62,346 bases of DNA, filler included, from Collodictyon triciliatum (GCA_043381765.1; 11 parts of 11 records of this genome joined end to end with filler, not necessarily neighbours in it); one strand, 5' to 3'; positions 11,287 through 34,508 are shown, counted from the whole stretch's first letter. A program made the numbers and translations. Notes: generated by a model from the letters alone, not told the origin.

Positions 11287-11686
11287 TGTGTATATCGATT
11301 GAATTGTTCATTTTTCCCTCTCAAACCTGTCAAAATTGAAGCCAAAGGGATGCCCACAAACAACTTGCAATTTGTAAGAGCCCGCTGTTCTCAGCGTATT
11401 TATTTAATGGATTGACTTGTCACTCCTCACCAAATCGACATAGAAAAACCGGCAAACGAGAGAATTTGCCAAGCAAGAACAGCAAAATGACCCACAAGAA
11501 AACGCCAAAACGAATCAAATAACTTATCTGATGCATGACAAGGAGACAAAATTAACCAAGCAGGATGGGTTTAACATTGCGGCAAAACCCCGCTACTCTC
11601 GAATGTAGCGAGACCCCACTGTCCTACTGACTCAATCATTGTTGGGTCCTCGCTGACAACATGACTCAATAGGTAACCGCGACAAA

Positions 11687-13019
11687 ATGTCGATGCCTCT
11701 GCCACCTCCGCCACCGGCTCAATCGCCTGTCGAGATGCTCAAGTTGGTTAAACCAAACTGGCAGCCGGCAGACAAGCCACTCGCTCAATGCACATCACTG
11801 ACCTTAGAGCCGCGTTTGTATCCGGTTTTTCCCATGGGAATCTTTGAGCTGCTACTGCTCCAGAAGCTATGCTTAGCTTACTGCAAATTGAAGCAACTTG
11901 CACCAGAAATCTCGATGCTCACAGCACTCAAGACGCTGTTGCTGCAAAACAACGAGCTCTCGGCTGTCCCTTCGGGCTTGTCGCTTCTGAAGAACATGGA
12001 AGAGCTGGACTTATCCGGAAACAAGTTCTCCAGCGTACCGTCGGAGATAATGAACCTGCCGTTGCTCAAGAGCTGCAACCTCAGGATGAACAGCCTGTCA
12101 GAAATCCCGGCCGCGATTTCCATTCTGACGTCTCTTGTAGTGCTAGACATTTCTGTGAATGAACTGAAGCACTTGCCCAAAGAGATCTCGGCATTGACTA
12201 ACCTTGTCGAATTCTATTCCTTTCACAACAAACTCACCAGTGTGCCGGAGGAAATCTCTGCCTTGGTTCGTGTTTCGAGGCTCTCCTTGGTGGGTAACAA
12301 GCTCGCGTACCTGCCTGTGGGTATGTCCGCACTTGTAGACCTCAAGCACTTGGAGCTTTCCGATAATAATCTATCGTGGCTCCCCTCTGGTATGTCTACC
12401 CTCACCAATCTGGAGAACTTATCTTTGGCTGAAAATAAGGTACGTTCGCTAAGTGTCTTTGTCATTGACGATAATGCGCCATGATACCTCTCAACAATGT
12501 CGCACAGTCCATTACAAATGAGGGTTCTTGTATAACGATACATTCTAAAATTCAAAGCAGAATAAAATTAACTTGCGTGTGGTGAAGCTGAATAAAATCA
12601 CCCATTTAGATCGAGGAGCTGCCACTGTGGATTACAAGTTTTACAAAGCTAGGAATCCTCTCTATAGACAAAATCGGCTCGGTGAGTTTGAAACGAGCAC
12701 CTGAGGGTATTGTCAACCTTCCATGCTGGAACTATGTCCCTCCAGTTACCTTTGAGATGTTTGCAAGCGGAATAGGACAAGAAAACCCGTTACGAAAGCT
12801 AAAACTCTATCAAATCCCAGTAATATATATTTCATACCATCCAATCAAATGTATTGATATTTGTGTTGAATCGTGTTGATCTGGTCCATCAGCGATTAAA
12901 AAAAGAAAAGAAAGGATATACATGATATAAATATGCCCTTTTCGTTTTGCAGACACCGGTGGCAGAAATCATTCCACAGCCTGAATCTGAAGTTGCCAAA
13001 GTTGTCAAAGAGGGCTTTC
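11687..13019 (+). CDS. Leucine-rich repeat protein, 5' part (probably the N-terminus of an LRR-Roco); truncated by the contig end
   Basis: About 9 regular 23-aa LRRs in exon 11687-12439, then exon 12610-12819 (IEELPLWITSF...KRAPEGIVNLPCW...KLKLYQIP) and exon 12953-13019 (TPVAEIIPQPESEVAKVVKEGF). Confidence 0.85.
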
Positions 13020-26959: not shown

Positions 26960-29586
26960 ATGTTGGGGTTCCTTCAGTGCGGTTTTCGCCTCGGCCAGTC
27001 AACTTGGAGACCAACCCTGAGCGCCATTTCAACGATCTCAAGTCGTCTGAAGCAGCCAAGCCCTGGAGTTTCGGGGTATCCAAGCCGCTTTTCTTGTCTT
27101 TCACGGAGGTTTTATGTCTTGGAAAATCGAGATTACTCGAAATCAGATGTAGCAAAGGTAAAACACGGAATAAAGATGGAAACGCAGGTCAAGCCAAAGC
27201 GTTCTTCTGGTTTTATAGATCGCCTTGTCTTCTTTTCCAATATCGGGCTTTTAGTCCTTGGACACAGTAGCCTAGTTCTTCGTCTTTCCTTTGCTGGATT
27301 TGTCATGTACACTTCAGGTTTGTTTTCCCATGCCATTGCACGAAATCTACAGCATTCAACTTTAGCATTATTATCTTATTTTATTATTATATCATAATAC
27401 TATTACCTGGATTCACTCGCCTCATGTGTTTTATGATTAATCAGACTTGTCACATTATTACATTATATTTATTAGTACAAAGAACATTTATTTATTTCTT
27501 AATCCAATCCTTTTAAAAGTAATGTTATTTGGAAGGAAGATTAAAAAAAAAACTAAAAAACTTATCGCGTTCGCTTTATCAGACCAGATTTATTTGCTTT
27601 GAGGCTGTGATTGACGTCTTCTGAAAACAAATCACGATTTAATCAATATCAATAGGTATTGGCGGGGAAACTCTGCTGCCCTCTTGGTTATCTCATTGGA
27701 TTTTTCAGAAAACTGCATTTACCATTCACTTTGAGAGTGCAAAAACTATTTGGTCAGAAAATGTTATTCAGTTTTCAAATATAAAGATCAAGAGGAACAA
27801 AGAAGATATGGATTTGTTGAATTATCACCCTTCATACTCTGAAATTGAGTTCTACGCCACAAAATTGCTCGTCCAGTTCTCTTTTGAATGGTTTCTTGAA
27901 GGTTTAGTAATATTTTTGACCTATTATTTTTCAGTAAGAATATTATCTTTAATGACACCCTCTTTGAATCGAATAAAGGAAAAAATATTTAATGACACAC
28001 AATCGTATAAATACAAATAATGCGGATATAATCAAAGAGAAATCAAACAAAATCTATACTCATTTTTATATTTTTTTTTTACTACAAGATTACATGTTTG
28101 TCGAAGTCTTATATCCAAATATAAATGTTTTCTTTGTCGATGTCTCGGACGTTCCTTGGCTGAGGCCCTCTGTTATGTTTTTGTTATCAGTTAGGACAGT
28201 TTTAACCGAAATTTCTATTGTAATTTAATCAGGAAAAGGATTCATCAAGCAAGTTGAAGCACATGATGTCATTTGGACATTCGATCGCCGCAAAATCCCG
28301 GATACTTTTGAAAGCCCTTATGTTGTGGATGATTCTAGCGCCACATTGTTCCACTTAAATTCATTTATCATACGAAATGCAGAAGTAAGAATTCTCTATC
28401 CAAACTTTCGCCCCGTCCACATCCATCTCTACAAGTTTGATTGTGATCGATTTCGTGATCGATGGGTCTTGCTGGACTTACTCACTGCAAAGACAGTTAT
28501 TGGAACTATTGATTCACACTTATTTTCTCTTCAGAAGCAAATTGGCCACGAGGTATGCAGCAACTGATTTCCTATACGACGAATTTATACCACCTTTTTA
28601 ACTTTGCTTGCTTTCAAAAATCTATCATAAAAATGAACATAATTCAACTCAACATGTTGCTACATTTATCATATTTATAGTCCCTAATTCGCATCGATTC
28701 CATAAATACCGATCTCATCGGAGGAGGAGAAAAAGGACAGTTAAAATGGGTTCTGGATGGTAGAGTTGACCAATTTATTCGCATATGTTGGACTCCAAAT
28801 CTTGACTACTGGGACACTCGGAAGTTGCCCGAGCATTGGGGGTCTCGAGAAGGTTTGTCTTATAGTTGTATCAGTCTTTTCAAGCATACAGAATCCCATG
28901 TCATTCAATTTAATTGCGGTGTTTATATTAGCTTATCACGTCCGTCTTGTATGCAAGCATATTCCTCATATTTAAACTCTGTATCACAGTTCTTATGAAC
29001 GCAAAGTTCGTATTCAAGGATTTGTACATGCGAGTTCCGTTGATGAATACAGAAATGTCATACATTCGCAGCGCTGTTATCCAACCTCTGATATTTTATC
29101 TCAACAATATCAACTATGCACCCGATTTTGACATTAAATTCTCTATTCCGCTGGCAAGTAGTTTGCTTTTTTTTTTCTCGACATATTTATTTTTTCCTTT
29201 CAATTTGATGTAGGCACAAATACTTTGTCAGTTCTTAACTACTCTGGTCTTATTTTTTACTCGAGACTTGGAACTATACTATTCCACTGATATAGTTATA
29301 TTGAAAACTTAGACATTCTAGCCCTGAAATAGCCTATTAGTCATGTTAATCCTTTTCATTTTCTTTTTAGCATGAGTTTTTGGATGCATGGTCATTCCAT
29401 GATACTTCCATCCCGCGCAAGGTTGTGTTGGAATGCGAAAGACAAGCGACCCAGGGTGATGAGCGCACGGCAAAGTCCAATTGGTTCCAAATGTATATCC
29501 TGGAGACGTCTGTTTTCTTGTACCAAAAATTTGTGGAGTCGTTTACCAGGCTCTTGGATTTCTCTTACAGGTGGTTTGCATACTAG
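26960..29586 (+). CDS. MDM31: Mdm31/Mdm32-family mitochondrial inner-membrane protein, multi-exon
   Basis: Arg/Ser-rich presequence and TM segment, then FHLNSFIIRNAEV..YPNFRPVHIHLYKFDCDRFRDRWVLLDLL, RIDSINTDLI..GQLKWVLDGRVD, KDLYMRVPLMNTEMSYIRSAVIQPLIFYLN and EFLDAWSFHDT, all in the order seen in fungal Mdm31. Confidence 0.85.
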
Positions 29587-30112
29587 ATCGAACCTTGGCT
29601 AGTTTTATCAATGATTCTCTGAAGGACACCTTGTCAGCCTATTTTAATGTCCATAGTAGCCATATAAATTTTTCTTCCTTGAATTCATCTTAACGAAGTC
29701 TTTTCAGTTTTGTTTCCAATTATTTTCCCAACAGCGCTATACAGCATCTATATCTTCTCTTTACTCTATATCAAATACTTGCTTATAATCCCTCTTACTG
29801 GGTATTACTTTCGTTAAATATTGATACATCAAGGAATGAACAACATCGTAAATTAGTTACAATTTCGAGATGTGCTGATGGCTATTAGCTATATGTAATT
29901 ATGCATTATTCAATTTCGCTTTTTATATGATTATTGGTAATTTTTTCTTTTTTTATGATTATTGGTAAATTATTATCAAAGGATTGATTTCCAAAAAACT
30001 TTTTTTTTTCATTTTGTGAGTTGGAAATATTTGTAATTCAGCGGTTAAGATACAGTATTTCTTATCTATGTAAATGCGGAATCCTTACATGCACATATGA
30101 TGGCCTTGTTTT

Positions 30113-30240
30113 TATTATATCCGACTAGAAGGGGTATACCAATAGATAGATTGGTAAACCTGGTGCGCTGGTATCCAAGGTCTCGCCACCTTTTTTCACA
30201 AAGGTCGTGTAGTGGTGATGAGTGCCAGGAAAGACCCAAC
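30113..30240 (-). ncRNA. Candidate Fanzor omega-RNA scaffold / element right end
   Basis: Lies just 3' of the nuclease RuvC-III segment. Stems GGUCU/AGACC and ACCUUU/AAAGGU, a 10/11-bp hairpin (30133-30143 with 30150-30160) and a crossing CCUGG/CCAGG pairing. Confidence 0.55.
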
Positions 30241-30254
30241 AGTCTGTTTTTTAG

Positions 30255-32131
30255 AAGAAGGTGTACGCGCATATTTTGAAGGATTAAAAGAGCTTTGTTG
30301 AGTATATTTTTAGCGCTGTTAGAGTCCTTTGTCAAGAATACACTTTGTTTACTCTATGAGCGATTGTGTTCTTTACACATGAGACATCTATACATTTTTT
30401 TTTTTTTGTATTTCCTTTAGGTGTCATATATTTCAATTCTTTTTCGCAGTTGAAACACATCTTGGAGGTTCTAAATTCATCTACACTAACTGCTTCAAAG
30501 CATTTGTATAGCATTTTTTGTAACCGTCTTCCGATTGTTGCCGTTAAATGTTTCATCGGAGATTTTCTACTTCAGTCCCCATACGCCAATACAACATCCT
30601 TGCCAAATGTCTTTTCGATTCGGTCCATAAACAACTGTTCACTTCTTTTTGTATTAACATACTGTCTCCACCTCATCTTTCGAAAAGTTCGTGCTCATAA
30701 AATCTGGATAGTTCTATCTGGCATCTTGATTTCATAGATACATATTTTCGAAATCTTTCATAATCGGCCGTGCGTGAATTATGTTTACTCAGTTCTGTCT
30801 CTAAATCGATTAAAGATATTCTTAATGTCTCAAACTGCTGATTCTCTTCAAAAGTCATGGCAACAAAAGAAACAGCACTTTGTAAACCTGTTGCCATGCA
30901 TATCCCCGAAGCATTGTGCTTTTCTTTTTTTCTCGCGCATGAGTATTTTGTGATTTTCAAGAGGTTTGCTATCATGTCCTGTTTGGTGTGCTGAATAACG
31001 TAATTTCTTACCTGTCTCCGCCACCATGCAAACAAATTAAACTTGCCTGCGTCCACTCAAACTATTATTATTTTTCGCTAATAAAGATAACTGCTCTTCG
31101 GAAAGTTCATCTATACATAAATATATTCTTGGGTCTTTTGACTAAGTTAGGATTTTTGAATTTGAAATACCTTTCTTTTCAAACAATAATGACACCGCCA
31201 AGCCGTCTGTTTGTATCGTGTATTTAAAATTGTAGTCTTTTTGATGAAAGACCCTCTTCTTCATTTCAAAGAAATCATCCCATAGGGCCTCTTACCATCC
31301 TGATATATTCTCCAATAATTTTGGCTTTCCAGATAATACTAATAGACATATCAAACATGCGGTATCTAGAGTAATATGACGTGATATATTGGTAGTTCTT
31401 ATGGGGATTGGTTGCAACAGTTTGGCTCTAATGTCCTCAAAAATGCGATTCGTGTAAATCAGACATGGTATGCACTTATTTGGATTGACTTTGACGTCAT
31501 ATTTGATATCATTTACAAATCGCTGGGAATGATATGATGCAAATGCGTTATAGCCCATTCTTTATATTGCTATGGTATTTCGAGATTCTTGAAGATGGCT
31601 TTTCTTATCTTTCGTAACTCAGCCTTTTCAATAGCTATCTGTCATATTCTCATCTTTAGGAACTGTTTGATTTATAAAGTGCAGTAACCTCTTTACAAAT
31701 GTTCCTTAATGTCATTGTGATAAGCTTTAACATTTGCTTCGCCAAGTTAATACACGAGACAGTATAACCAACGGAAAGCGTTCTTCTCGGGACAAAAGGA
31801 ATCGAAAATCATTGAGATAAAAAGTCATCATGTCATCTCTCAAACCTGGTTTTTTTAATCTTGCGGGTCTATCTTGTGAAGCTACTCCGACTGTCTTCAA
31901 AGCGTACAAAAAACATTTCATCGATTGTTGGGAGTTGTTGTGATTTCAATGTGTCCATCTTGCGAACAGATAAGCGTCGGTAACCAAATTATGACACAAT
32001 AAAGCCGTATCGTTGGTTTTGTCATAGTCATCCGCATTATTTACAATCGACTTTCGAGAGGTTTTCACATTTCGATAGTCTGGTTTTACCGACTTCAGAT
32101 TCTCAGACTCAAGATGTTTTCTTTTCTTCAT
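30255..32131 (-). pseudogene. Fanzor1: Fanzor1 (eukaryotic TnpB-derived RNA-guided RuvC endonuclease), intronless, multiply frameshifted
   Basis: Joining frames gives KTSRKSI, LPTIDE, QPIPIRTTNISRHITLDTA, TIQTDGLAVSLLF, RuvC-I IIV*VDAGKFNL, FRKMRWRQY, LAYGD*S, RuvC-II VDEFRTSKMCFNC, RCLMCKEH and RuvC-III KDSNSAKNIL. Confidence 0.9.
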
Positions 32132-32852
32132 GTGAAAGTCTTTGTTTTACTTTTTCCTTTAGAAAAGTACCGATTTAACTATTTTAGTAAAATTTTATTC
32201 AATCAGTCAATTTAATACATGAATAAGAAAACTGCATAAAATCAATTTAGGTAAAATTGAGCATCTACCAAGGCTTTCATAATGTGCGCATTGTAGCAGA
32301 CAAACAAACAAAGTTTTTTTTATAGGTGATTGAGACAAAACCCTGAGAGCCGACTCGGCGAGTTCGAAGGGCCAGCCGTATAGCCATTGCAGCTGAAAGT
32401 CAGCATATCAGCCGCAGACAACATGATTACCGCCGCAAGTGTGGATAGTATGCTTTTTTGAAATGCGTGTTTGGTGGGAGGTTTGTAGGGTGGGTTCTGC
32501 TGGGTCAACGCAAGAGCTTGTTTGTAATTTTTGAATTTTAATTCGGAACAAGATTTACATAAAGGAAAAATAAAATATAAGCTGATTATAGGAATGGAAT
32601 GAGATTATAAAGTATTTTTAGCCTTATTATATATACTAATCGTACTACTATATTATTCATATTGCTTCTTGGACTCATCAAAGCTACTGCTTCCGTTAAT
32701 CCAGATTTAATTCGATGTTTGTCTGTGCAATAAACTGTTACATACGGGTACACTTTCGTTGTATATAAAGTATTGTGCCTTGAAAGGGATAAACCAAGTT
32801 CGTCACAACCTTTGCAATGAAGTTTATCCATTTACAGGCTGAATGAGACCGA

Positions 32853-33021
32853 AGAAAGGAGAAAGGAGAAAGGAGAAAGGAGAAAGGAGAAAGGAGAAAG
32901 GAGAAAGGAGAAAGGAGAAAGGAGAAAGGAGAAAGGAGAAAGGAGAAGGAAAGGAAAGGAAAGGAAAGGAAAGAAAAGAAAAGAAAAGAAAAGAAAAGAA
33001 AAGAAAAGAAAAGAAAAGAAA
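32853..33021. repeat. Purine microsatellite (GAAAGGA)n-(GAAAG)n-(GAAAA)n
   Basis: Read directly. Confidence 0.95.
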
Positions 33022-33255
33022 NNNNNNNNNNNNNNNNNNNNNNNNNNNNNNNNNNNNNNNNNNNNTTAATTAATTAANNNNNNNNNNNNNNNNNNNNNNN
33101 NNNNNNNNNNNNNNNNNNNNNAAAGAGAGAGAAAAAAAAGAGAGAAAAAAAAAGAGAGAAAAAAAAAAAGAGAGAAAAAAAAGAGAGAGAAAAAAAAAGA
33201 GAGAAAAAAAAAAGAGAGAAAAAAGGAGTAGGGCATGATTAGCACAAGCACGTAC

Positions 33256-33527
33256 TGCAGTTGATTGAAGCTCAGATCCAGGTAGCGGACAGACGTTGCA
33301 TACTGCTCCACAAGCTCCTCCGGAAACGCCTCGAGCTGCTGATCAACCACGTGGAGAGCGCCGTCTTCAAAGTGGAAGGACAAACCAGCGGGCTCTGCCT
33401 CTGTCTCTGCCTGCTGATACTCCTGCTGGTATTCCGGCTGCTCTGTTTCCGCTGGTGCTAACGTGGCTGCCGGCGCTGCCTCGTGCGTTGTCTCCACCTT
33501 CTTTGTACGCGAGCGATTCGATTCCAT
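33256..33527 (-). CDS. First exon of an LRR protein (LRMDA/C10orf11-like); rest off contig
   Basis: MESNRS...LHVVDQQLEAFPEELVEQYATSVRYLDLSFNQLQ followed by a GTACGT donor. Confidence 0.65.
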
Positions 33528-33654
33528 GCCTGTTGTACTTTTTGTGACTCTCCTTTTGTCTTTTTCCTCTTCTTCTTGTTCTTCTTCCGCCTTTTCTTGC
33601 TTCCTTCTTTCTTTGTGTAGTTCCTTCCCTAAGTGATAGACGCAGTCTTTTATC

Positions 33655-33685
<31 letters not shown>

Positions 33686-34508
33686 GCAAGGGTTGTCGGA
33701 TCTTCACCACCTCCCACGACGGAGGCATTTGGATCTCATATGAGTCTGCTGTTAGTTCAACTGAGTACCCCAGACTACACGCACAAAGAACCCAATATAA
33801 ATAATAAAAATAAAAATAAAAAAAAGAAGAGAGGAGAGGAATACAAAACGCGAGGTCAGAGGAGGCGACAGAAGAGAAGTGATGGGGTGCGGCGTTACAG
33901 GGTGAAAAGTCTTGTGCAAGAAAACAAGGCAAGCCAGCATTGCATGATGAGCTTCTGCCTGACTCGCGCCAACCGCACGCCCGACAGGCAAACGCCCTGC
34001 AGGAATGGCGCGGCCGCGTGGGGTTCGCGTTTTCGGATTAGGCCGCCCTGCTTTGAATCTTGTACCTGCCACTTTCCAGTTGATCAAACGGAGCGGAAGG
34101 CGCAGGGAGAAAAAAAAAAAAAAGGAAAATAGGAAAGGAATGTCTTTTATCATATTTTGGAATTTCTTACTTAATATTACTAGTGTGGAAAAGGGTGAGG
34201 CGAAGCCCTGCTGTGCTTTTCTTTTTCCTGCAAGATTTAAGCCAACGGCAACAACAATCCCGATCGTTGTGTTGGGATCGCAGGAGCAGCACGCGAGGGT
34301 GGGTTGCGGAGGGGTCTTTTTTTTTTTTTTTCGGTGTTTCGCATCTTGTTTTTTGGTTGATGTACTTTGGTGGCCTGGTGACTCGACTTGGACGCCAAAA
34401 ATATGGACACGCAACCATATCGTTTTTGAATCCAACAAAAGTGACACGCTCCAACGATTGCTCCTGTGATATTCGTCCATACTACCCCCAACCTTGGAAA
34501 TGAGATTC

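What the first reader, a model, noticed from the sequence alone, without database searches (positions are those of the whole stretch)
30255..32131. Fossil Fanzor1 RNA-guided nuclease split across several broken ORFs
Seen: minus-strand fragments join into one intronless reading path of about 1.9 kb in an intron-rich genome. All three RuvC acidic residues are still present (D at 31051-31053, E at 30476-30478, D at 30324-30326), with a CxxC...CxxH zinc-finger remnant, a TDG motif, nonsense codons at 31057-31059 and 30572-30574, and frameshifts. Established: this motif order and long N-terminal region define Fanzor1, the eukaryotic TnpB descendants carried by transposons and giant viruses. Inference: this genome hosts or hosted a Fanzor family, and intact siblings could be new programmable nucleases. 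No transposase is visible in the contig, so this copy is non-autonomous.
Basis: partly seen in the sequence, partly recalled or inferred. Interest (0 to 1): 0.85.

Follow-up and report, generated by a model that had tools for sequence, protein, structure and literature searches.

The report
Dead Fanzor1 nuclease gene copy
This is a decayed, non-functional copy of a transposon-borne RNA-guided DNA-cutting enzyme gene (Fanzor1) lying between ordinary genes of a microbial eukaryote; such relics are a known kind, and its closest relatives sit in giant-virus DNA.

Summary
The minus strand from 32131 to 30196 is collinear, without introns, with an intact 648-aa environmental protein (P0005). 371 of 634 codon columns are identical, broken by 6 internal stops and about 13 frameshifts.

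P0005, the family profile and two of the window's own fragments match only solved Fanzor1 chains, not Fanzor2 or TnpB. The predicted fold of P0005 matches SpuFz, PpFz and GtFz.

The copy is dead. It has no detectable terminal inverted repeat, transposase or structured 3' RNA. It lies between cellular genes.

Public runs hold many diverged copies of the same element. The lineage nests among relatives found at 534 places in giant-virus contigs. There the gene sits in 2.0-3.3 kb elements with inverted repeats, often beside a Tc1/mariner-like DDE_3 transposase, with a 3' RNA that shows covariation.

Sharing of Fanzor1-mariner elements between giant viruses and hosts is already in print.

Verdict: a new member of a known kind, of modest interest.

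The parts
30196..32131 (-). Full-length Fanzor1 pseudogene. ATG at 32131-32129, terminal TGA at 30198-30196. It has 6 internal stops and about 13 frameshifts.
   Evidence: Frameshift-aware alignment to P0005: 371 of 634 codon columns identical. tblastn E = 2.9e-136.
32119..32131 (-). Start Met followed by a K-K-R-K basic patch, which may be a nuclear localisation signal.
   Evidence: The residues are shared with P0005. The NLS role is an inference from Jiang 2023; it was not tested here.
31202..31210 (-). TDG motif of the WED domain, a Fanzor1 hallmark.
   Evidence: T312, D313 and G314 are kept. D313 is invariant in 51 relatives. The motif is named in Yoon 2023.
31045..31059 (-). RuvC-I motif. 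A TGA stop stands in place of Gly, followed by V-D-A-G. The family has DPG, and the window has Pro changed to Ala.
30572..30580 (-). G-D-stop where the family has GDW. This is the canonical RuvC-II position, occupied by Gly. A TGA replaces Trp.
   Evidence: The Gly or Pro substitution at this position is described in Jiang 2023.
30464..30481 (-). D-E-F-R-T-S, with the alternative catalytic Glu at 30478-30476.
   Evidence: E555 and S559 are invariant in the family and kept in the window.
30366..30457 (-). Zinc-ribbon remnant: CxxC at 30457-30446 and CxxH at 30377-30366. A frameshift in an A-run near 30409 lies between them.
   Evidence: Pfam PF07282 matches at E = 0.004, below its cut-off.
30306..30329 (-). 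RuvC-III motif K-D-S-N-S-A-K-N. The family has RDxNxxxN; the window keeps Asp and has Arg changed to Lys.
30149..30195 (-). 3' tail from the stop to the approximate right end of the repeated element.
   Evidence: Contigs of other copies stop matching near 30149-30180 (tables 2 and 8). No RNA structure signal. No match to the viral 3' RNA model.
32132..32600 (-). Upstream part of the element, shared with other copies. The segment 32167-32341 is missing from some copies. The true left end was not found.
   Evidence: Depth and joints. No inverted repeat partner was found.

Best explanation
The locus is a dead, intergenic copy of a DNA transposon about 2.4 kb or longer. Its only recognisable gene once encoded a Fanzor1 of about 650 aa: an omega-RNA-guided RuvC endonuclease with the rearranged D-E-D site.

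Shown here:
- Full-length collinear homology to an intact Fanzor1-class protein.
- Retention of the catalytic and hallmark residues.
- Heavy disabling damage.
- Absence of a transposase, of terminal inverted repeats and of a folded 3' RNA.
- Cellular flanking genes.
- Other, diverged copies of the same element in public runs.

Inferred:
- When alive, the element worked like its relatives in giant-virus contigs. There the Fanzor1 gene lies inside a short element with inverted repeats, sometimes with a Tc1/mariner-type DDE_3 transposase.
- In those relatives the 3' end of the gene plus the right inverted repeat encodes a structured guide RNA that directs DNA cleavage next to the element's end.
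- The window copy depended on a transposase supplied in trans, stopped moving and decayed neutrally.
For: Homology and family assignment:
- Collinear alignment to P0005: 371 of 634 columns identical, 6 stops, about 13 frameshifts.
- P0005 against solved chains: GtFz1 2.1e-28, PpFz1 2.7e-24, SpuFz1 3.7e-23. Nothing else scored below 0.38.
- Window fragments against PpFz1: 4e-8 and 1.7e-4.
- Family profile against solved chains: PpFz1 6e-93, SpuFz1 2.5e-88, GtFz1 4.2e-67. No Fanzor2 or TnpB at E <= 1.
- AlphaFold model of P0005: pLDDT 84.1. Its top seven Foldseek hits are all Fanzor1, E 1.5e-27 to 5.9e-24, TM up to 0.71. The next hit is at 2.8e-7.
- The window keeps 14 of 17 invariant and 37 of 52 near-invariant family positions.

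The lesions are real and the element is multi-copy:
- Seven of my 13 frameshifts coincide with indels that set the window apart from some or all of the other copies in public runs (table 4).
- Two 151-nt contigs of a freshwater metagenome are identical to the window. They cover the stop at 31144-31142 and the frameshift near 30913 (table 8).

Context:
- Flanks hold MDM31/32-like exons and LRR, Roc-COR and kinase genes.

Relatives in giant-virus contigs:
- 534 of 596 candidate stretches encode relatives.
- 25 of 81 loci carry a DDE_3 gene upstream.
- One locus has 48-nt inverted repeats.
- 56 of 76 loci share one sharp right end.
- The 3' RNA has 9 of 24 pairs with compensatory changes.
Against: - Pfam alone does not recognise the window fragments. 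The only relevant hit is PF07282 at E = 0.004, 17.7 bits against a cut-off of 26.3.
- Neither end of the element could be defined from the window. No inverted repeat was found.
- The transposon superfamily is inferred only from viral relatives that are 47% identical or less to P0005.
- The window's 3' region folds no better than shuffles: z = -0.73, and 46 of 200 shuffles fold as well.
- The viral 3' RNA model does not match the window: best 4.9 bits, E = 0.28. So an omega RNA is not shown for this lineage.
- The source genome could not be searched.
- The metagenome with identical contigs may be the sample the window was assembled from, so it is not certainly independent.
Confidence: 0.93

Rival explanations
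1. The stretch is a small remnant of an integrated giant virus, not a copy of a transposon resident in the host genome.
For: - The window plus P0005 lineage sits inside a 47-row clade (SH-aLRT 99). The two other branches of that clade hold giant-virus contigs.
- Atlas look-alike clusters are 92-100% viral, mostly Nucleocytoviricota.
- A host-chromosome Fanzor fragment derived from a giant endogenous virus is described in Chlamydomonas.
Against: - Only about 2.4 kb is element-like.
- Both flanks carry cellular genes within about 1-2 kb: MDM31/32-like exons up to 29213 and an LRR frame from 33066.
- No viral hallmark domain appeared in 66 of 84 scanned ORFs.
- The same element is present as many diverged variants in two runs, as expected of a genomic repeat family.
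Confidence: 0.06
2. The gene is really intact, and the stops and frameshifts are assembly or sequencing errors.
For: One frameshift, near 30409, lies in a run of 13 A, a typical site of error.
Against: - There are six substitution-type stops, and most of the 13 frameshifts lie outside homopolymers.
- 3 of 17 invariant residues are changed.
- The window's end branch is 0.47 against 0.25 for P0005.
- Metagenome contigs identical to the window cover one stop and one frameshift.
Confidence: 0.02
3. The gene is functional and is read with reassigned stop codons or programmed frameshifts.
For: None beyond the presence of in-frame stops.
Against: - The six stops align with six unrelated family residues: TAG with E, H and E; TAA with R; TGA with G and W. 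No single reassignment fits.
- Neighbouring host frames are open for up to 1226 aa under the standard code.
- Thirteen frameshifts in both directions are present.
Confidence: 0.01
4. It is a Fanzor2, a TnpB or prokaryotic contamination, not a Fanzor1.
For: PF07282, the shared TnpB/Cas12f zinc-ribbon module, is the only Pfam match.
Against: - No Fanzor2 or TnpB chain was reached at E <= 1 by P0005 or by the family profile.
- In the fold search ApmFz2 ranks 30th (E 6.2e-5, TM 0.22) and ISDra2 TnpB 39th, against TM 0.67-0.71 for Fanzor1.
- The TDG motif is present.
- The flanks are eukaryotic genes.
Confidence: 0.01

Closest known systems
Fanzor1 RNA-guided endonucleases (SpuFz1, GtFz1, PpFz1; Bao and Jurka 2013, Saito 2023, Jiang 2023, Yoon 2023)
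   Same: - Domain order and length class of about 650 aa.
- DPG-type RuvC-I motif.
- Gly at the canonical RuvC-II site, with an alternative Glu in D-E-x-x-T-S.
- Zinc ribbon and RD-type RuvC-III motif.
- TDG motif in the WED domain.
- Intronless, basic N-terminus.
- Whole-length sequence and fold match of the intact relative.
   Different: - The window copy is a pseudogene: 6 stops, about 13 frameshifts, and P to A, E to D and R to K changes at invariant sites.
- Sequence identity of P0005 to the solved Fanzor1s is only 18-20% in the structural alignments.
- The subfamily (1a to 1d) was not determined, because no named reference sequences were on hand.
Fanzor1 plus IS630/Tc1/mariner elements of giant viruses and giant endogenous viruses (PGv-1 and relatives in Bao and Jurka 2013; Chlamydomonas element families A-C in bioRxiv 10.1101/2024.09.03.611062)
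   Same: - The window's relatives in IMG/VR contigs have this architecture. They have inverted repeats (33 nt in L001, 48 nt in L009). A DDE_3 transposase lies upstream in 25 of 81 loci. Variants of 2.0-2.4 kb hold no transposase gene.
- A decayed host-chromosome copy related to viral elements is also reported there.
   Different: - In the window no transposase, inverted repeat or 3' RNA homologue is detectable.
- The window lineage is a separate long branch, at most 47% identical (through P0005) to any viral locus found.
- The host is an unidentified low-GC eukaryote, not a green alga of known name.
Fanzor2 and IS607-type TnpB
   Same: - RuvC fold with the alternative Glu.
- Zinc ribbon.
- Guide RNA encoded at the 3' end of the element.
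   Different: - No sequence match at E <= 1.
- Weak fold match, TM about 0.2.
- The window lineage is about 650 aa, against 362 to 466 residues in the matched Fanzor2 and TnpB chains.
- The TDG motif is present.
- No IS607 serine recombinase was seen.

Membership tests
Fanzor1 | RuvC-I Asp within a DPG-type motif | tested here: met
   Asp is kept at 31053-31051. The window reads D-A-G where 51 of 51 relatives have D-P.
Fanzor1 | Canonical RuvC-II Glu replaced by Gly or Pro, with an alternative Glu downstream in D/N-E-x-x-T-S | tested here: met
   Gly at 30580-30578 and Glu at 30478-30476, 34 residues apart. Both are invariant in the family. The feature is defined in Jiang 2023 and Yoon 2023.
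Fanzor1 | C4 zinc ribbon between RuvC-II and RuvC-III, followed by the RD motif (Bao and Jurka motif) | tested here: met
   CxxC ... CxxH, with one Cys changed to His, then K-D-x-N-x-x-x-N with Asp kept and Arg changed to Lys.
Fanzor1 | TDG motif in the WED domain | tested here: met
   T-D-G at 31210-31202. The Asp is invariant in the family. The feature is named in Yoon 2023.
Fanzor1 | Whole-length similarity to experimentally characterised Fanzor1, closer than to Fanzor2 or TnpB | tested here: met
   sequence; fold of P0005: seven Fanzor1 chains at E <= 5.9e-24, next hit 2.8e-7.
Fanzor1 | Placement inside the Fanzor1 clade on a tree with named Fanzor1, Fanzor2 and TnpB references | not tested
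   No named reference sequences could be obtained. My tree holds only unnamed relatives.
Fanzor1 | Carried by a eukaryotic-type transposon (not IS607) with defined ends | tested here: inconclusive
   Window: no inverted repeat and no transposase. Viral relatives: inverted repeats and a DDE_3 partner in 25 of 81 loci.
Fanzor1 | Structured guide (omega/reRNA) encoded at the 3' end, overlapping the right end of the element | tested here: inconclusive
   Window: z = -0.73 and no model hit. Viral relatives: 9 of 24 pairs show compensatory changes, and the right inverted repeat pairs with an upstream segment. The model also finds loci that were not used to build it.
Fanzor1 | Open reading frame able to give an active nuclease | tested here: not met
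   6 internal stops and about 13 frameshifts. The locus is therefore filed as a Fanzor1 pseudogene, not as a working Fanzor1.
Giant endogenous viral element | Neighbouring viral hallmark genes or a long block of viral-like composition | tested here: not met
   The flanks carry MDM31/32-like, LRR, Roc-COR, kinase, RabGAP, RRP4, Alg14 and SNRNP200 pieces. GC content is even across the window.

The most novel reading that the evidence does not exclude
The source organism, an unidentified freshwater eukaryote, may be a natural cellular carrier of a Fanzor1-mariner element lineage otherwise known almost only from uncultivated giant-virus genomes (the clade Pfam labels DUF8286). On this reading the element passes between virus and host. 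Close relatives of the organism would still hold transcribed, possibly intact copies. Those copies would yield new compact Fanzor1 nucleases, and would give a sequence link between giant-virus MAGs and a host.
Probability: 0.3. Interest if true: 0.5.

Novelty: new member of a known kind. Interest (0 to 1): 0.3.

Why it matters
The dead copy itself has no use as a nuclease. Its value is as a marker.
- It shows that a Fanzor1 lineage, nested among elements of giant-virus contigs, has multiplied in a cellular genome.
- It points to an assembly where intact siblings, element ends and a guide RNA could be recovered.
- It adds one more case to the published picture that giant viruses and their hosts share Fanzor-bearing transposons.
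- It flags that Pfam still files most of this Fanzor1 clade under a domain of unknown function.

Tried and rejected
Searches that gave nothing:
- Own-genome search: no genome is held.
- Cluster-member look-up for names and accessions: switched off.
- Pfam on the eight raw fragments: only a sub-threshold PF07282 hit.
- Second copy of the element in the window by blastn: none.
- Inverted repeats: nothing near the element's ends. Local alignment of the right end against 26.5-36 kb scored 21-23, against a shuffle mean of 19.2 and maximum of 36. A 20-mer of the right end with up to 3 mismatches found only itself.
- Transposase relic: tblastn with the viral DDE_3 protein gave a best E of 0.78.
- The viral 97-aa upstream ORF: no HSP in the window.
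- Rfam on 28500-34000: 0 matches. tRNA scan of the window: 0 genes.
- JGI metagenome scan with P0005: only one distant locus, 21% identical.

Host taxon:
- The Roc-COR frame's best hits are unnamed EukProt transcriptome proteins at 33-36% identity, so the host stays unidentified.

Sequencing runs:
- No RNA holder is listed. X1 and X3 are only guessed to be RNA, so expression is open.
- The parts of the stretch without cover in X1 and X3 (29600-30104) were not interpreted.

Supplementary tables of the Fanzor surveys could not be opened, so they may already list this clade.

Full report
**What is there**

Reading the minus strand of 29800-32700 in three frames shows pieces of one protein scattered over all frames. 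A search with the C-terminal piece, read through its TGA as X (P0001), found 44 proteins at E <= 0.01 among 64 candidates. The best full-length one is P0005, 648 aa. A partial, uninterrupted relative, P0004, is 84% identical to P0005 (186 of 222).

tblastn of P0005 on the window gives one hit, from 32131 to 30287, at E = 2.9e-136.

My own frameshift-aware alignment runs from the ATG at 32131 to a terminal TGA at 30198-30196.
- 371 of 634 aligned codon columns are identical (58.5%).
- There are six internal stops: 31572-31570, 31294-31292, 31144-31142, 31059-31057, 30574-30572 and 30356-30354.
- There are about 13 frame changes.
- 14 residues of P0005 have no codon, and there are 6 extra codons.
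- No gap is longer than two residues, so there is no intron.

It missed four stops and about 60 nt of the 3' end.

**What family**

Pfam on the raw fragments gives only a sub-threshold PF07282 match (E = 0.004). The evidence therefore rests on relatives and on solved structures.
- P0005 matches three solved chains, all Fanzor1: GtFz1 2.1e-28, PpFz1 2.7e-24 and SpuFz1 3.7e-23. The next matches are myoglobins at 0.38 and above.
- The window's own fragments reach PpFz1 at 4e-8 (P0001) and 1.7e-4 (P0003).
- A second search with P0005 gave 104 proteins at E <= 0.001 among 8000 scored candidates.
- A profile of 51 of the relatives matches PpFz1 at 6e-93, SpuFz1 at 2.5e-88 over its whole length, and GtFz1 at 4.2e-67. 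No Fanzor2 or TnpB chain appears at E <= 1.
- An AlphaFold model of P0005 (pLDDT 84.1, pTM 0.83) has seven Fanzor1 chains as its top Foldseek hits: E 1.5e-27 to 5.9e-24, TM up to 0.71. After a gap of 17 orders of magnitude come Cas12 proteins. Mimivirus Fanzor2 ranks 30th and ISDra2 TnpB 39th, both with TM about 0.2.

The invariant columns of the family are the hallmarks named in the literature:
- D of TDG, D-P of DPG, and G of GDW (the former RuvC-II site).
- The alternative Glu, S of T-S, and R-D and two Asn of RuvC-III.

I saw the matching passages of Bao and Jurka 2013, Jiang 2023 and Yoon 2023.

The window keeps 14 of these 17 positions; the changes are P to A, E to D and R to K. It keeps 37 of 52 near-invariant positions, against 47 of 52 for P0005.

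**Is the damage real?**

Runs found by shared words were laid on 29600-32600.
- Two small contig sets (X1, X3; coded organisms) gave 372 and 356 contigs at 80% identity or more. The identity classes of 99+, 95-99, 90-95 and under 90% held 30/66/125/151 contigs in X1 and 46/62/114/134 in X3.
- Up to 17 (X1) and 19 (X3) different contigs lie over a single position.
- These contigs cover about 30105 to 32600 and not the lower flank.
- Seven of my 13 frameshifts coincide with indels that set the window apart from some or all of the other copies. Examples are four letters missing at 31747, one at 31726, and one extra at 31637.
- The stop at 31294-31292 is removed by a substitution seen in most or all of the contigs over it (10 of 10 in X3).
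- Two 151-nt contigs of a freshwater metagenome (X4) are identical to the window. They cover the stop at 31144-31142 and the frameshift near 30913. That sample may be the window's own source.

The stops align with six unrelated residues, so no recoding explains them.

**Surroundings**

- The element lies between MDM31/32-like exons (27643-29213, plus strand) and an LRR frame (33066-34037, minus strand).
- Further out are RabGAP, RRP4, Alg14, SNRNP200 pieces and a Roc-COR, kinase and LRR cluster.
- Of the 84 frames of 110 aa or more, 66 were scanned and none has a transposase or viral domain. The 18 not scanned are simple-repeat or N-bearing frames.
- No second copy, inverted repeat, transposase relic, Rfam match or tRNA was found.
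- The right end of the repeat lies near 30149, 47 nt after the stop. The left end lies beyond 32600 and was not found.
- The 3' region folds no better than shuffles (z = -0.73).

**Relatives and how the family works**

In IMG/VR, 534 of 596 candidate stretches encode relatives. The best 80 were kept, many from giant-virus MAG contigs up to 267 kb. Atlas look-alike clusters are 92-100% viral, mostly Nucleocytoviricota. They carry PF26935, which the Atlas names DUF8286.

Architecture of the viral loci:
- In L001 a pair of 33-nt inverted repeats encloses a DDE_3 transposase with an HTH domain (E = 1.5e-15) and the Fanzor1 gene.
- 25 of 81 loci have such a transposase upstream.
- Against L009, 76 loci align. 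56 of them share one right end, and 24 share a left end about 450 nt upstream of the gene.
- L009 has 48-nt inverted repeats.

The 3' RNA of the viral loci:
- The last 290 nt of 55 loci are conserved up to a sharp end, after which the flanks are unrelated.
- RNAalifold predicts 24 pairs, 9 of them with compensatory changes. One helix pairs the right inverted repeat with an upstream segment. This matches Yoon 2023's description of Fanzor1 guide RNAs.
- A covariance model of this RNA finds loci that were not used to build it: L081 at 2.7e-9, L005 at 8.2e-6 and L001 at 2.9e-5. It finds nothing at the window's 3' end; the best there is 4.9 bits.

On a tree of 64 rows, the window and P0005 are sisters (SH-aLRT 100). 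They sit inside a 47-row clade (99) whose two other branches hold viral contigs. The window's end branch is 0.47 against 0.25 for P0005. The root is on a long branch, so no direction of transfer is claimed.

**Comparison with what is known**

- Bao and Jurka 2013 described Fanzor1 in mariner elements of large viruses, and old non-autonomous families (passages).
- A 2024 preprint on a Chlamydomonas giant endogenous virus describes Fanzor1 elements with an IS630-Tc1-mariner transposase, Fanzor-only and degraded variants, and a host-chromosome fragment 80% identical to a viral family (passages).

The window is another case of that kind. The subfamily (1a-d) and the host taxon remain open; the Roc-COR frame's best hits are unnamed transcriptome proteins at 33-36% identity. 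Supplementary tables of the Fanzor surveys were closed and may already list this clade.

**Verdict**

This is a genuine, correctly read Fanzor1 fossil. It is a new member of a known kind. Its interest is modest, and lies in the pointer to a multi-copy family and to the link with giant viruses.

Noticed in passing
window 6530-61010: There are ten pairs of 44-N runs, each pair separated by 12 bases. Nine are spaced about 6.6 kb apart; the tenth follows the ninth by about 1.4 kb. This regularity looks like masking, not assembly gaps. One pair (33022-33121) lies just upstream of the element and may hide its left end.
   Followed up: no
window 40563-45208 (+) and 11657-12484 (+): Three adjacent frames separated by short gaps carry Roc plus COR-A, a protein kinase domain and LRRs, which suggests a Roco-type kinase gene with short introns. 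A second LRR frame lies at 11.6 kb. The best outside relatives are only 33-36% identical.
   Followed up: partly
window 27643-29213 (+): Three frames match successive parts of the MDM31/MDM32 profile: positions 73-117 (E 0.0055, weak), 181-287 and 410-449. This is an intron-split mitochondrial morphology gene that ends about 1 kb from the element's right end.
   Followed up: partly
window 32167-32341: Several contigs of other copies join 32166 directly to 32277, 32330 or 32342. So 110-175 nt of the element's upstream region are absent from part of the family. The ends do not look like a canonical intron (table 5).
   Followed up: no
L009 7598-7891 and 53 other loci: A 97-aa Lys/Glu-rich ORF just upstream of the Fanzor1 gene, inside the inverted repeats, is conserved in 54 of 81 loci. 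It is absent from the window. Its function is unknown.
   Followed up: partly
L009 9740-9913 and 51 other loci (alignment A3, model R1): The viral elements have a conserved 3' RNA of about 175 nt with compensatory base-pair changes that ends exactly at the element terminus. The model also detects it after a Fanzor gene only 21% identical to P0005 (L081, E = 2.7e-9). It is a good candidate omega RNA for this clade.
   Followed up: partly
proteins P0005-P0150: Nearly all relatives carry PF26935, which the Atlas names DUF8286. So most of this Fanzor1 clade is filed in Pfam as a domain of unknown function or as 'transposase'. The local Pfam copy lacks that model.
   Followed up: no
window 32842-33000: A long (GGAGAAA)n-type purine microsatellite, grading into (GGAAA)n and (GAAAA)n, lies just above the element. 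Similar simple repeats fill many frames across the window.
   Followed up: no
window 29903-30115: The freshwater metagenome run X4 holds a 151-nt contig over the unique flank below the element, with 2 differences (table 8). So the organism or a close strain seems to live in fresh water. The two small runs with many element copies do not cover this flank.
   Followed up: no
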